Below, one piece after another: positions 44,658 to 49,207 of a stretch of DNA of 64,000 bases. The position numbers and the translations under genes were made by a program. Source of the stretch: a virus; the IMG/VR virus record IMGVR_UViG_3300044982_000128, positions 1 to 64,000 of that record; one strand, given 5' to 3'. Each line of letters opens with the position of its first letter. The stretch's first letter is position 1. Below the pieces are notes generated by a model. The model did not search any database. It was not told the DNA's origin and saw only the letters and a list, made by a program, of their open reading frames with translations.

Positions 44658-45850
44658 AATATCCTCCGCTCTCCGACTTTCTCATCCTAGGCTTGAGACT
44701 AGGCAACGGTGCGTTACGGCCGTACAGCCAATTCAGGGATTGAATAGCGGCGAATAGTTCCGCGCGCGTCAATCGGCCGTGTTCCGGCGAGAGACCGTTA
44801 GCTACATGGTTCATCGGATTCCGCGCGTTTTCCAGCTCCGCCCACTTGCGCGCGGTCGCTCGAGACGGGGTAATCTCGGAGCTGGTGTTTATGCCCCATT
44901 GCGTTACGCCTTGATAGCTTCCCTTGCGAACTACCTTTGAGAGTGTCATAGCAGACTCCGAATGAAATTACATGCGTCTTGACCGTATTTGCGTACGATC
45001 GCCTCTGCTGTGCTTTCGTTTTCGTTTGGTTTGATGAATTCATCAAACTTGATTACGTCGAGTTTTAGCAAGCCTTCCCAGTAGTCTTCAAGTTTTACAC
45101 CGAATACGCTGCGGAAACGTTCGGCGTCTTCAGTGCGGGGTGGAGAGGATTTGATCATGCGCTCGGTTAAGAATCGTTGTGCGATTGGTAGACGTTCGGC
45201 TGCTGTGCGGGGTAGTTTGTAAGTCATGACATCACCGTCTCAGCAGCACATTTCACGGCATCGATCAGACTTGGGCGCGGTTTGCTCAGGTCAACGTGAG
45301 AGAAGGACCCATCTAATCCGCCCTTCCATTCTGTAGGCTCACTGATTACCTTGAACCAATTACGTCCTGCTTTCGGGTTCCATACTTTGCGAACTACCGC
45401 CTTTGGGTACTTCGCTCTTACGATACTTATAGCTTCGGAATGAGTCATCGGCTCACCTCGCATTCATAACCCTATTACAGTTCCTCTCTCTTGTCAATAG
45501 GCCCTTACAATCTTTTTTGACTCGCCTTGTCTATCTGGCGTACACCCATAGCGAACGTGAGCCAGATCGGGCAATCGCGTCCAACTAAAGCGGGATTCCT
45601 TCACCTTGACACGGATGGGGGAGTTCCTAAGAATCTAGATGGACAATCGGACGCGCACCAGCTCGCCGGCGCCAGTGTCGACGTCCGAATACCCCCTATG
45701 GAGTCCCCACTCTGGAAAGTCGAGCCCCCTCTCGCCGGCCGGATACGGGGCTCTCTTCTCCTTCTAAGAGGGCATACAAAATATTCAAAATTTTCTAGGT
45801 TGCAAACAAACCAAGTTGTGTTACGGTGGTTCTCGGAAAGGAAAACAACA

Positions 45851-46411
45851 ATGAGGATCACTATCACTGAAGCCTTGCAGGAAATCAAGACTCTGGTCGC
45901 CCGCATCCAGAAAAAGCGGGAGTCGGTCAAACCATATCTATTGAGAGATAGCCGTATTAAAGATCCTTTCGATAAGGACGGTGGCGTGGAAAAGTTCATT
46001 CGTGAGGAGAGGCAGTCTATCGGCGATCTGGAGGCCCGGATCATTACTATTCGGACTCAGATTCAAACATCAAATCTCGCCTCGGCTTTAGCTATTGGGG
46101 AAACGACTCGCTCGGTTGCTGAGTGGCTCACCTGGCGCCGGGAAATCTCCAAAGGTCAGAAGGAGTTTCTGCAGGTGATCTGGCAGTCTATCCAGGCCAC
46201 CCGGCAGCAGGTTCAGCAGAAGGGAGGCCGGGTGGTGGCAAACGTGGCCGTGTCCACATCTGTCGCTTACACCCAGGACACTCCTCCGGAGGTCTTAGTG
46301 GGAGTTGACGAACAGGGTTTACTCAAGGAGATCGAGGCGATGGAAGAGACTCTTGGCGTGCTTGACGGTCGTTTGAGTCTCTTCAACGCAACTACCACAA
46401 TCGAAATTTAA
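45851..46411 (+). CDS. DIP1984/septicolysin-like coiled-coil protein
   Basis: AAGGA RBS before ATG 45851; ITEAL..IKTL..RI N-terminal helix, IQTSN mid motif, SVAEWL, C-terminal LDGRLSLFNATTTIEI. Confidence 0.65.
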   Translation: MRITITEALQEIKTLVARIQKKRESVKPYLLRDSRIKDPFDKDGGVEKFIREERQSIGDLEARIITIRTQIQTSNLASALAIGETTRSVAEWLTWRREISKGQKEFLQVIWQSIQATRQQVQQKGGRVVANVAVSTSVAYTQDTPPEVLVGVDEQGLLKEIEAMEETLGVLDGRLSLFNATTTIEI

Positions 46412-46417
46412 TCGGTA

Positions 46418-46716
46418 TTCCGCTTTCGGTAGCGAAATGGGATAACAATGAGGATTTGTCAAACTAGCTCAATTGGTAGAGCGGTCGATTTTCAATCGAC
46501 AGGTAACAGGTTCGATTCCTGTGCTTGACTGTCTCGCTAGAGACTTTGATGAAGAAGCTGAAAGTTAAATTCTGAAAGCTGCTTTGCTCAAGTCTGAACA
46601 CTGAAAGAGAACAAGATGCTCAAAACCCTTCGTAAACCCGGCGGCGCTGGAGACAGAGCCGATGTCCTTCCTCAAAGGGGCATTCTCAGGGTGAAGGCAG
46701 CAACTTGGAAGCGGAA
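46418..46716 (+). ncRNA. ~300-nt structured ncRNA with embedded tRNA-like domain
   Basis: Terminal helix TTCCGCTTTC (46418-46427) / GGAAGCGGAA (46707-46716); several internal hairpins; no credible + strand ORF. Confidence 0.7.
46458..46530 (+). tRNA. tRNA-like element, anticodon TTC (Glu), no encoded CCA
   Basis: Cloverleaf: GTCAAAC/GCTTGAC acceptor (one mismatch), GCTC/GAGC D-stem, GTCGA-TTTTCAA-TCGAC, ACAGG-TTCGATT-CCTGT. Confidence 0.8.
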
Positions 46717-47526
46717 ATGATTGAATCGGAAGGAAGGCTGTTCTCGCGTGGAAACCAAAACTAAAAAATGGAAGTTCGCAGGCAGCCTGCCTCCGGTTCT
46801 CATCATGAGCACCGGTCACTATCCGCTGGCCGGCGGGGCCGAACCGGGATTCGACATCTCAAAAATGCAGCTGGACGATCGCATTCTGATGAAGCAGGTT
46901 TTCTACACTACGCCAAAGCGGATTCACGGCTTGCTCCATTATGAAAGCCCGACCCAACTCTTTTTTGTCGGCTACGATTGTGTCTTGTGCGGCGAGGTTT
47001 TCCTGGTGCCGGATTCTGTCAACAACATACGATCTTTAACAGATGCGATGGAGCACGGATGCACGGCGTCGCCCGCCGACAGCATTGCCTACTACAAGCA
47101 CACGGAGCCCAAGCCGTGACCCTCAAGATCTTCCACAAACTCGTCTGCCTCATAAAAGGCCACTCGAAGACCCAAGAGCCCATGGTCTTCTTCCGTTCCT
47201 GGGATTCCCTTCACGAGATCGGTTCTCTCCACTGCAGGCGCTGCGGTGCGATGCTTGGTGAGTACCGAAGGAACATATCGGAGCCAATATGACCCCAGAA
47301 ACTCTGCACGCCCCACACGGAGCCCAGACTTACACCTGCCCCAAGTGCCACCAAACTTTCGCCGCGCTTTTTCTTTTCAACCGCCACGCCAGAGAAGTGC
47401 ACGGAGATCGTAAGATATGACCCGCCTTTTTCATTTCGTCTGCTGGATCCGCACCGGCCATGAGTGGGTCGGAAACTTCGATCATATGTTCTGTTTCTGG
47501 TGTGGCAGACCGAGAAAGGCCTCTCG

Positions 47527-48733: not shown

Positions 48734-49150
48734 TTCTCCCTGCAGCGGCGCAAGTCTGACGCATGGACACCGTCGCTGCAAACGGTTCTCGGACCTAAAC
48801 CGAGTGGTGGAGGGACGGTCACCACGATGCCCCCAAGTTAAGCATGTCAACGCTGTAGGGAAGTGATTTCGGACGCGGGTTCGATTCCCGCCATGTCCAC
48901 CAACAAGCCCTTGCTGCGCGGGGCGGCTATTGATACGTCAATCCGTGATGCAGAGTTCAAGGGCTTGTTTGTGGGCATGCCAAGGTTTCGACGGAATCAG
49001 CGAACTCCAGTTTCATGCCGGGATTGATGCTCACCGTAACGAGAATCAAACTGCAACTGCGGAACCTTTCGCATTGCCGATGGCTGCCTAAGAAACAACC
49101 ATCCGAGGTTTGGCCGCGTTCCTTGTCAAAGAATACGCGGTAAAGGAAAG
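48734..49150 (+). ncRNA. ssrA: circularly permuted (two-piece) tmRNA
   Basis: T-arm GCGGG-TTCGATT-CCCGC then CATGTCC-A-CCA ends at 48902; the partner 5' end GGGCATGCCAAGGTTTCGAC starts downstream at 48973; G3-U70 pair; tag frame 49059-49091 AEPFALPMAA-stop. The start of the acceptor piece is approximate. Confidence 0.9.
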
Positions 49151-49177
49151 GGCTCCAGCTTCGGCTGGGGCCTTTTT
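49151..49177 (+). terminator. Rho-independent terminator after tmRNA
   Basis: GGCTCCAGC-TTCG-GCTGGGGCC-TTTTT. Confidence 0.9.
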
Positions 49178-49178
49178 G

Positions 49179-49207
49179 TTGACAATACATTCCAATCGTG
49201 ACATGAT
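49179..49207 (+). promoter_or_regulatory. sigma70-type promoter
   Basis: TTGACA-N17-CATGAT, 6 nt before ATG 49214. Confidence 0.65.

What the first reader, a model, noticed from the sequence alone, without database searches (positions are those of the whole stretch)
45851..46716. Candidate new RNP system: DIP1984-like coiled-coil gene plus a ~300-nt closed ncRNA
Seen: 6 nt after the stop of a 186-aa coiled-coil gene begins an RNA whose ends pair (46418-46427 with 46707-46716). It encloses a full tRNA cloverleaf, a hairpin (GTCTC-GCTA-GAGAC), an unpaired A-rich repeat tract and a multi-stem 3' domain (CCTTC..ACCC/GGGTGAAGG, GGCGCTG-GAGA-CAGAGCC, ATGTCCTT/AAGGGGCAT). Knowledge: the protein pattern resembles the DIP1984/septicolysin-like family, which is oligomeric and of unclear function; tRNA-like modules inside larger RNAs occur in YrlA Y RNAs and GOLLD. 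Inference: a co-transcribed protein-RNA pair forming a ribonucleoprotein, for example a tRNA decoy against anticodon nucleases or a scaffold. It is the first unit of the rightward arm, suggesting early expression.
Basis: partly seen in the sequence, partly recalled or inferred. Interest (0 to 1): 0.9.

Follow-up and report, generated by a model that had tools for sequence, protein, structure and literature searches.

The report
Knotted heptad-repeat phage RNA with partner protein
Right behind a small helical phage gene lies a real, expressed, about 300-base folded RNA with two knots, a track of 7-base repeats and a tRNA lodged in a variable loop; the same gene-plus-RNA pair recurs unannotated in hundreds of phages including model phage T5, and its job is unknown.

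Summary
Window 46418-46716 encodes a structured RNA. It has a 13-bp closing helix, two pseudoknots, a four-helix 3' domain and a track of 7-base repeats, all supported by covariation in 42 related phage loci.

Four soil and wetland metatranscriptomes each hold one 212-286 nt contig that lies wholly inside the RNA, tRNA included. None covers the neighbouring genes.

The RNA is always linked to the 186-aa gene, which is the only conserved neighbour. The protein has the DIP1984 fold (3KDQ, Z 10.7) but fails the Pfam and NCBIfam models. It belongs to the phage T5 T5.085 family, mislabelled "tail fiber".

The pair recurs in T5, PVP-SE1, Bacillus, Pseudomonas, Vibrio and Lactococcus 949 phages. There the RNA sits in unannotated gaps and matches no Rfam family.

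The tRNA is an optional passenger: about 17 anticodons, fragments only in other relatives, none found in the six cultured-phage gaps read. This weakens the tRNA-decoy idea. The 12-nt copy of the gene's start is unique to this phage.

The best reading is an undescribed protein-RNA particle. Physical binding is inferred, not shown.

Earlier notes of this scan reached the same class in at least six other genomes.

The parts
45851..46411 (+). 186-aa partner protein gene: T5.085 family, PHROG 1491, DIP1984-like helical fold
   Evidence: ORF. phrog_1491 E 3.6e-16. More than 170 metagenomic homologues. hhalign against T5.085-like proteins gives 98.6% probability, E 1.4e-15. AlphaFold2 pLDDT 87.5. 3kdq_A Z 10.7.
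46418..46716 (+). The whole structured RNA, about 299 nt including the nested tRNA
   Evidence: Covariation. Metatranscriptome contigs cover 46432/46443 to 46713-46715 in 3 studies.
46418..46430 (+). P1 closing helix, 5' strand. It pairs with 46703-46716, with 46706 bulged.
   Evidence: 83% paired in 42 sequences against 36-56% slid. Several pair types per position.
46431..46438 (+). Conserved junction (family consensus AGCGAAG)
   Evidence: Present in all 42 loci. Also seen as UUAGCGAAG in PVP-SE1.
46439..46442 (+). Pseudoknot PK2, 5' strand GGGA. It pairs with TCTC at 46684-46687.
   Evidence: 96% paired. The second pair is AT in 23, GC in 10 and GT in 6 sequences.
46449..46454 (+). Pseudoknot PK1, 5' strand TGAGGA. 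It pairs with TCCTCA at 46669-46674 in the loop of hairpin Pd.
   Evidence: These are the highest covariation scores of all 5'-3' column pairs. A 5-9 bp helix with unrelated sequences is found in 39 of 42 loci and in cultured phages.
46458..46530 (+). tRNA-Glu(UUC), no encoded CCA, nested in the variable loop of the RNA
   Evidence: ARAGORN. Rfam tRNA 64 bits. In relatives the same site holds tRNAs of many identities or tRNA fragments.
46531..46544 (+). Small hairpin GTCTC-GCTA-GAGAC in the variable region
   Evidence: Read from the sequence. Not conserved in relatives.
46551..46621 (+). Heptad track: about 8-10 units of AAAGYUN
   Evidence: Identity at lag 7 is 0.42 and at lag 14 is 0.37, against 0.26 when shuffled. 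Spacing between units peaks at 7, 14, 21 and 28.
46622..46702 (+). 3' core. It contains AAAAC, Pa (46627-31/46693-97), Pb (46636-39/46689-92), Pc (46642-61, GNRA loop GAGA at 46650-53), Pd (46662-83), the conserved UCUCAGG and the conserved GGCAGC.
   Evidence: RNAalifold finds 23 pairs, 20 with compensatory changes. Model R1 and the pair counts.
46703..46716 (+). P1 closing helix, 3' strand
   Evidence: The RNA-seq contigs end at 46713-46715.

Best explanation
This is a self-contained two-part phage module. It consists of a small helical protein, probably dimeric (T5.085 family, DIP1984 fold), and a dedicated RNA of about 250-375 nt.

The two ends of the RNA come together in a compact core. 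The core has closing helix P1, two pseudoknots, a four-helix junction with a GNRA hairpin, and invariant single-stranded motifs. The core presents two peripheral elements:
- a conserved single-stranded track of about 8-12 heptads (AAAGYUN);
- a tolerant variable loop.

I infer that the RNA accumulates as a stable molecule and that several copies of the protein bind it, most likely along the heptad track. This would give a ribonucleoprotein that works in the phage's tRNA/tmRNA gene island.

In this phage's clade the variable loop has captured tRNA genes, here tRNA-Glu. These are passengers, not the working part.

Shown: the RNA structure, its expression as a discrete species, the strict genetic linkage, and the breadth of the family.

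Inferred: physical binding, the heptads as binding sites, and any cellular target.
For: RNA structure
- 3' domain: 23 pairs, 20 with compensatory changes. 94.6% paired against 35-45% slid, and 0 of 500 shuffles reach the score.
- P1 and PK2.
- PK1 is kept with unrelated sequences in 39 of 42 loci and in T5, PVP-SE1, WRP3, SE131, Deep Blue and phiPsa374.

Expression
- Four metatranscriptome studies each hold one 212-286 nt contig that lies wholly inside 46432-46715 and runs continuously through the tRNA. Nothing lies on the flanking genes.

Linkage
- The R1 model hits 43 of 47 sources that carry the protein. Three of the four misses are truncated contigs.
- All 4 MAG loci also hit.
- RNA-first order occurs in L032 and L049, and the linkage is kept.
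- A search by RNA motif found the full RNA only where the protein is present.
- No other neighbouring gene is shared across 53 loci.

Breadth
- Protein homology to T5.085-like proteins: hhalign 98.6%.
- 731 cultured phage records carry a homologue.
- Each of the 9 cultured loci inspected (six genera plus three Lactococcus 949-group phages) has an unannotated gap downstream. Each gap contains P1, heptads and the AAAUCC...GGCUG core.

Heptads
- Period 7 in both clades.
- The tract is among the best-conserved parts between WRP3 and 949, which are 83% identical over the region.

Protein oligomer
- Complex prediction supports a symmetric homodimer: score 0.73, best of 3 controls 0.02.
- That mark was reached by 20 of 30 proteins solved as pairs of one chain and by 1 of 23 solved as single chains.
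- The runs agree in at least 91% of contacts, and the partner's pLDDT is at least 87.
- My own alignment was used, so the counts hold only roughly. A like structure (3KDQ) is solved, so the pass may come from memory.
- Invariant Arg, Lys and Trp residues (R18, K22, R32, R54, R63, R68, W92, W95, R96, R118) would suit RNA binding. This is inference.
Against: - No direct evidence that protein and RNA touch.
- The protein fold has no known RNA-binding relative and no known function.
- A two-fold symmetric dimer does not obviously read a directional 7-nt repeat.
- The RNA core is elaborate enough to act on its own, as a ribozyme or an RNA-only assembly.
- In 3 of 4 runs the RNA contigs start at 46432, just after the 5' strand of P1. 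The mature RNA may therefore lack that strand. This could mean processing, or it could be a library artefact.
- Contigs cannot give true ends or expression levels.
Confidence: 0.6

Rival explanations
1. The RNA is the machine and works without stably binding the protein. It could be a self-processing ribozyme or an RNA-only multimer like ROOL or GOLLD. The neighbouring protein would then be a chaperone, a regulator, or merely co-regulated.
For: - The double-pseudoknot core has invariant unpaired nucleotides and a GNRA loop.
- Three independent RNA contigs start at the same base, 46432. That is the junction between the 5' strand of P1 and the invariant AGCGAAG, as a cleavage would give.
- Like GOLLD and ROOL, the RNA sits in phage tRNA islands and can enclose a tRNA (my own knowledge of Weinberg 2009, and PMC12286853).
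Against: - The strict one-to-one linkage with one protein family, in either gene order, is unusual for self-cleaving ribozymes. Weinberg 2017 (PMC5737381) makes this argument for other motifs.
- No Rfam ribozyme family hits.
- The shared start at 46432 may be loss of the 5' end in library preparation.
Confidence: 0.2
2. The RNA is a cis-acting element of the protein's own transcript. It could be a 3' UTR stabiliser, a processing signal, or an autoregulatory operator that titrates the protein.
For: - The RNA usually starts 6-20 nt after the stop codon.
- In Lactococcus, Pseudomonas and Bacillus phages it is followed by an intrinsic terminator, so it ends the transcription unit.
- In this window a 12-nt copy of the gene's start region lies in the RNA.
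Against: - The RNA lies upstream of, or up to about 1 kb away from, the gene in L032, L049, L044 and L069.
- RNA contigs cover the RNA but not the gene.
- About 300 nt with two pseudoknots and a repeat track is far more than a stabiliser needs.
- The 12-nt copy occurs in 1 of 42 loci only.
Confidence: 0.1
3. The RNA is a tRNA decoy or tRNA-supply device against host anticodon nucleases, or a maturation platform for the nested tRNA.
For: - A tRNA or tRNA-derived anticodon stem-loop or T-arm occupies the same loop in most members of this soil and wetland clade.
- The module sits among tRNA and tmRNA genes in distant phages.
- Phage tRNAs are known to counter tRNA-cleaving defences (my own knowledge).
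Against: - There are about 17 different anticodon readings, so no single nuclease target is mimicked.
- About half the relatives keep only fragments. In L017 the tRNA lies outside the RNA.
- I saw no tRNA in the six cultured-phage gaps that I read (T5-like, PVP-SE1, phiPsa374, Deep Blue, JSF10, SE131). ARAGORN was run on WRP3 and DT57C and Rfam on all seven loci.
- The conserved parts are the core and the heptads, not the tRNA.
Confidence: 0.07

Closest known systems
VIPR systems: Vipr RAMP protein plus vrRNA (bioRxiv 10.64898/2026.04.26.720920)
   Same: A minimal, phage-encoded protein-plus-RNA module. The RNA carries 9-16 short tandem repeats and is capped by a conserved structured domain with a pseudoknot. 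It lies in long 'empty' intergenic DNA beside the gene.
   Different: - The protein here is a four-helix DIP1984-like bundle, not a RAMP/RRM protein.
- The repeats have period 7 (AAAGYUN), not period 5 (YNNGG).
- The repeats are conserved within lineages rather than hypervariable, so nothing points to a programmable guide.
TRAP on the trp leader and HutP on hut mRNA: oligomeric proteins that read evenly spaced RNA triplets (my own knowledge)
   Same: A single-stranded RNA track of evenly spaced short motifs that could be read by one protein subunit per repeat.
   Different: - Those are host cis-regulatory leaders bound by beta-rich ring proteins that sense a ligand.
- Here the track is part of a stable, knotted, stand-alone RNA, and the partner is a helical dimer.
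- Binding is untested.
GOLLD and ROOL RNAs (Rfam RF01998, RF03087; PMC12286853)
   Same: Ornate phage or prophage RNAs found beside tRNA genes. GOLLD sometimes has a tRNA nested in a variable region (my own knowledge).
   Different: - GOLLD and ROOL are two to three times larger, are RNA-only homo-oligomers, and have no dedicated protein gene.
- Their covariance models give no match here.
YrlA-type Y RNA with Ro60/Rsr (Rfam RF02553)
   Same: A non-coding RNA with paired ends and a tRNA-like module that forms an RNP.
   Different: - There is no YrlA match in the RNA.
- The tRNA module here is optional.
- The partner has a different fold.
- No Ro60 gene was looked for beyond the ORFs that I scanned.
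Stable RNAs of unknown function in phage tRNA clusters: T4 species 1 and 2 (my own knowledge), and T5 'rnaX' as annotated in DT57C
   Same: Stable small RNAs of unknown role encoded in the tRNA regions of large lytic phages.
   Different: - The T5-clade copy of this RNA lies directly behind T5.085. It is not the annotated rnaX, which lies about 1.6 kb further on.
- No relation to the T4 RNAs was tested.

Membership tests
T5.085 / PHROG 1491 protein family (labelled 'tail fiber protein') | Full-length sequence homology to the family profile | tested here: met
   phrog_1491 E 3.6e-16. hhalign of A1 against 8 T5.085-like proteins gives 98.6% probability, E 1.4e-15, over 185 columns.
DIP1984 / DUF6847 (PF20935; NCBIfam DIP1984 family) | Match to the family's sequence model | tested here: not met
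   No Pfam hit at E <= 0.1. No NCBIfam hit. No PDB sequence hit, either with the single sequence or with the profile. Only 16-25% of members of neighbouring Atlas clusters carry PF20935.
DIP1984 / DUF6847 (PF20935; NCBIfam DIP1984 family) | Same fold as the solved C. diphtheriae protein 3KDQ | tested here: met
   VIA-align gives 3kdq_A Z 10.7 with 152 of 152 residues aligned, the only match with Z >= 8. Foldseek probability 1.00, E 0.016. For helical bundles a Z under about 13 is not decisive.
tRNA (RF00005) | Cloverleaf covariance model over the gathering score | tested here: met
   46458-46530 scores 64 bits against a gathering score of 29. ARAGORN calls tRNA-Glu(ttc). There is one A-C mismatch in the acceptor stem and no encoded CCA (sequence).
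GOLLD, ROOL, YrlA, ribozymes and every other Rfam 15 family | Covariance-model match to the RNA outside the tRNA | tested here: not met
   Gathering-threshold scan of the window gives only tRNA and tmRNA. A permissive scan of 46380-46760 at E <= 10 gives only chance snoRNA/miRNA rows. The same holds for 7 cultured-phage loci.
   No match in this genome, DT57C or Deep Blue. Only chance-level rows (E 0.3-0.5, under 19 bits against a cut-off of 76) in WRP3 and PVP-SE1.
VIPR | RAMP (RRM, G-loop, thumb) protein | tested here: not met
   The model is four long helices plus a small sheet. The best fold match is 3KDQ, and no RAMP appears among the matches.
VIPR | Pentamer YNNGG repeats with hypervariable NN between close relatives | tested here: not met
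   Period 7. The tract is conserved between WRP3 and 949 and across 444 T5-like records at 88-99% identity.
Type III toxin-antitoxin (ToxIN-like) | Endoribonuclease toxin plus a tandem-repeat antitoxin RNA upstream of it | tested here: not met
   No PADLOC hit. The protein is a helical bundle. The repeats are 7 nt long and lie inside a larger knotted RNA, usually downstream of the gene.
Ribonucleoprotein (protein physically bound to this RNA) | Direct protein-RNA contact | not testable with these tools
   Only genetic linkage and a predicted protein homodimer are available.

The most novel reading that the evidence does not exclude
The T5.085-family protein and this knotted heptad-repeat RNA form a previously unknown, very widespread class of phage ribonucleoprotein. 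It would be present in T5, rV5-like, Bastille-like and 949-like phages. Protein dimers would polymerise along the 7-nt track, anchored by the pseudoknotted core. The particle would act on a universal host target tied to translation or RNA turnover. The shared RNA start at 46432 could mark a self- or RNP-guided cleavage that frees it from the mRNA.
Probability: 0.3. Interest if true: 0.9.

Novelty: categorically new. Interest (0 to 1): 0.8.

Why it matters
A structured RNA of this complexity, with two pseudoknots and invariant unpaired nucleotides, usually does demanding biochemistry.

This one comes with a dedicated partner protein whose fold (DIP1984/DUF6847) has never been given a function.

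It sits unannotated in over 700 sequenced cultured phages, including T5, which has been studied for 70 years, and dairy and Salmonella phages of practical importance. The protein is mislabelled 'tail fiber' in the databases.

Because T5, PVP-SE1 and the lactococcal 949 phages are in culture, the question is directly testable. The pair can be deleted, pulled down and imaged.

The finding also shows that phage tRNA genes can lodge inside another RNA's variable loop. That bears on how phage tRNA islands evolve.

Tried and rejected
The closest relatives (P0001-P0006, 80-93% identity) could therefore not be examined.
- Single-sequence folding gave z = -1.1, which is uninformative.
- The PDB sequence searches, with the single protein and with the profile, gave nothing. 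PADLOC gave nothing.
- 'The RNA mimics the gene's translation start': the 12-nt copy AACAATGAGGAT is real in this window but occurs in only 1 of 42 loci. It is not a family feature.
- A local hairpin CUUCG/CGAAG as an alternative to P1: covariation favours P1.
- A 21-nt motif scan of IMG/VR gave 8 extra hits without the 3' domain or the protein. They look like chance or unrelated matches.
- R1 scores cultured-phage RNAs only at 8-15 bits. Homology of the RNAs across clades therefore rests on shared architecture, shared motifs and the position of PK1, not on a significant model score.
- The supplements of Fremin 2023 (PMC10690425) are not held. Whether its 10,006 candidates include this RNA could not be checked.
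- Literature searches for DIP1984, septicolysin, DUF6847, T5.085 and T5p083 found nothing on function.
- RAGATH-27 does not match here.
- Only 4 loci were found in bacterial genome collections, all MAG contigs, so no host can be named.

Full report
**What is there**

The window is 64 kb of a complete 76.8-kb phage genome with terminal repeats, taken from IMG/VR.

At 45851-46411 lies a 186-aa ORF. Six bases after its stop a non-coding stretch begins and runs to about 46716. ARAGORN and Rfam call a tRNA-Glu(UUC) at 46458-46530.

Folding the single sequence is not better than shuffles (z = -1.1). The case therefore rests on comparison with relatives.

**Relatives and RNA structure**

The protein has more than 170 metagenomic homologues of about 186 aa. 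A profile search of IMG/VR gave 46 loci.

Protein identity is only 34-61%, yet the DNA behind the gene is visibly conserved.

- An alignment of the 3' part from 12 loci folds into four helices: Pa, Pb, a GNRA-capped hairpin Pc and a hairpin Pd. It has 23 pairs, and 20 of them show compensatory changes.
- A covariance model built from it (R1) hits 43 of 47 sources at E 1e-27 to 1e-9. Three of the four misses are contigs that end too early. The fourth is the most divergent protein (L047).
- On the 43-sequence alignment, 94.6% of cells are paired against 35-45% with slid partners. 374 cells changed on both sides, and no shuffle of 500 reaches the score.

I anchored the 5' part on its invariant AGCGAA motif and scored all 5'-3' column pairs.

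- The closing helix P1 is window 46418-46430 with 46703-46716, with one bulge. It is 83% paired against 36-56% slid, with several pair types per position.
- A four-pair pseudoknot PK2 joins GRGA to UCUC (46439-42 with 46684-87). It is 96% paired, and its second pair is AT in 23 sequences and GC in 10.
- The strongest covariation of all belongs to pseudoknot PK1 (46449-54 TGAGGA with 46669-74 TCCTCA in the Pd loop). 39 of 42 loci have a 5-9 bp helix there. The sequences are unrelated: CGCGGA/TCCGCG, ATAAGCAA/TTGCTTAT, CACACG/CGTGTG and so on.

Between the variable region and the core lies a track of AAAGYUN heptads.

- Identity at lag 7 is 0.42 and at lag 14 is 0.37, against 0.26 when shuffled.
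- Spacings between units peak at 7, 14, 21 and 28.

**Expression**

Seventeen soil, wetland and root-zone metatranscriptome runs hold a small share of the words of 45700-46900. I laid four runs from four studies.

- Each gave exactly one short contig (272, 282, 286 and 212 nt).
- Each contig lies entirely within 46432/46443 to 46642/46715, with no loose ends.
- Each runs continuously through the tRNA.
- Nothing lies on the protein gene or on downstream genes.

The tool rates shared contig ends across studies as a weak hint, and contigs cannot give levels. Even so, the simplest reading is a discrete, stable RNA of about 285-300 nt that still contains the tRNA.

Three contigs start at the same base, 46432. 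That is just after the 5' strand of P1. This could be loss of the 5' end in library preparation, or a real processing site. I leave it open.

**The tRNA is a passenger**

The RNA is 253-357 nt long in the 42 loci.

- 22 loci carry an ARAGORN-detectable tRNA at the same site, about 40-60 nt from the 5' end.
- These show about 17 different anticodon readings. Four have abnormal anticodon loops.
- By eye, the other loci keep pieces of tRNA there: anticodon-type stem-loops, T-arms or a D-arm.
- In L017 the tRNA lies after the RNA.

The site is therefore a tolerant loop that has repeatedly held tRNA genes. This argues against a specific decoy.

**Linkage**

- Clustering all ORFs of 53 loci shows that the protein gene is the only conserved neighbour.
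- In L032 and L049 the RNA lies upstream of the gene. In L044 and L069 it lies 0.5-1 kb away. The pair is kept although the order changes.
- Searching IMG/VR by an RNA motif found the complete RNA only where the protein is also present.
- The four hits in bacterial genome collections are MAG contigs. All four have the RNA.

**The protein**

- Pfam, NCBIfam, PADLOC and PDB sequence searches give nothing.
- PHROG 1491, labelled 'tail fiber protein', matches at E 3.6e-16.
- The AlphaFold2 model (pLDDT 87.5) has four long helices and a small sheet.
- Its one clear structural match is 3KDQ, an unknown-function protein of Corynebacterium diphtheriae. The scores are Foldseek probability 1.0 and VIA Z 10.7 over all 152 residues.
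- A homodimer prediction passes its controls: 0.73 against 0.02. The mark was reached by 20 of 30 true homodimers and by 1 of 23 monomers. The pass may come from memory of 3KDQ.

**The family is far wider than this clade**

tblastn of the window protein finds weak hits only in Lactococcus 949-group phages. In WRP3 the gene is followed by a 487-nt unannotated gap. The gap contains:

- an 11-14 bp closing helix;
- heptads;
- AAAAAUCC-CUAG...CUAGGCUGU;
- then an intrinsic terminator.

Between WRP3 and PMBT69 the closing helix carries three compensatory changes.

The WRP3 protein in turn hits 731 cultured phage records. These include T5-like, PVP-SE1/rV5-like, Pseudomonas phiPsa374, Bacillus Deep Blue and BCP78, and Vibrio JSF10. 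PVP-SE1's own annotation names T5.085. Profile comparison of the two protein sets gives 98.6% probability.

In all 9 cultured loci that I opened, a gap of 340-560 nt follows the gene. Each gap shows:

- a closing helix of 7-21 bp;
- a heptad tract, with lag-7 identity of 0.50;
- the AAAUCC...GGCUG core;
- in 7 of the 9 loci, a PK1-type pairing in the hairpin loop at the same relative position, with a different sequence in each clade.

The T5 copy (AY587007 43059-43419) is unannotated, as are nearly all of 444 T5-like records.

The module commonly sits in the tRNA island. There are 12 tRNAs directly upstream in Deep Blue, and tRNAs flank it in PVP-SE1, JSF10 and PMBT69. A tmRNA lies within about 3 kb both in WRP3 and in this window.

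No Rfam family covers the RNA in any of these.

**Reading**

The RNA class and its tie to one protein family are shown. That they form a particle is inferred from the strict linkage in either order, the stable accumulation of the RNA, the conserved single-stranded periodic track and the predicted oligomeric protein.

I put this at 0.6. The rivals are:

- an RNA-only machine or ribozyme (0.2);
- a cis element of the protein's mRNA (0.1);
- a tRNA decoy or maturation device (0.07).

The closest published analogue is VIPR. It is a phage RNP whose RNA has pentamer repeats capped by a pseudoknotted tail. However, its protein is a RAMP and its repeats are hypervariable guides. Here the heptads are conserved within lineages.

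**Prior notes**

After I had reached T5.085 independently, a word search of this scan's notes showed that follow-up agents had reported the same gene-plus-RNA class in at least six other genomes. These are AI notes, not independent evidence.

One note says that the first 86 nt of a gut-phage copy match Rfam RAGATH-27. That model does not match here or in four cultured phages.

I found no paper that describes the RNA or the function of the protein. The 2023 catalogue of 10,006 candidate phage RNAs could not be checked.

Noticed in passing
window 48842-49091 (ARAGORN 48810-49182), + strand: The phage encodes a circularly permuted (two-piece) tmRNA. Rfam tmRNA_permuted scores 94 bits against a gathering score of 47. 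The tag peptide is ATAEPFALPMAA. It lies 2.1 kb downstream of the RNA. Lactococcus phage WRP3 also has a tmRNA within 3 kb of its copy of the module.
   Followed up: partly
window 46432 (5' ends of RNA contigs): Three metatranscriptome contigs from different studies begin at exactly 46432. That is the base after the first A of the invariant AGCGAA and just 3' of the 5' strand of P1. It is either loss of the 5' end in library preparation or a processing or cleavage site. Unexplained.
   Followed up: no
L056 (Lactococcus phage WRP3, NC_027341) 855-933 and 2698-2772: A skipping-rope RNA (RF02924, 72 bits) lies directly after tRNA-Asp. An unannotated tRNA-like T-arm remnant lies upstream of the T5.085-like gene. 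Together with the tmRNA and the tRNAs this forms a dense RNA-gene island.
   Followed up: no
L067, L068, L073 (IMG/VR contigs, e.g. 3300009128_000003): The 5' motif GCCTTCGGTAGCGAAGCGAGAGAAG occurs closed directly by CCGAAGGC as a small hairpin. There is no 3' domain and no partner protein nearby. It is either a chance match or a minimal relative.
   Followed up: partly
GenBank/RefSeq phage records, e.g. NC_027341 gp101, NC_016071 gp082, NC_031056 Blue_209: The T5.085-family protein is propagated as 'tail fiber protein' through PHROG 1491. Its fold is a DIP1984-like helical bundle and it lies in early or tRNA regions. The label looks wrong.
   Followed up: partly
L027, L030, L040, L041 (nested tRNAs): ARAGORN reports nested tRNA-like genes with 6- or 8-nt anticodon loops (anticodons given as 'tt', 'tc', 'atcc'). 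They are either decaying tRNAs or tRNA mimics.
   Followed up: no
window 46717-46764: An ATG directly after the 3' strand of P1 opens only a 15-codon frame. In several relatives the GGAGG of that P1 strand sits 5-8 nt before the start of a real downstream ORF (L009, L010), so P1 could mask that ribosome-binding site.
   Followed up: no
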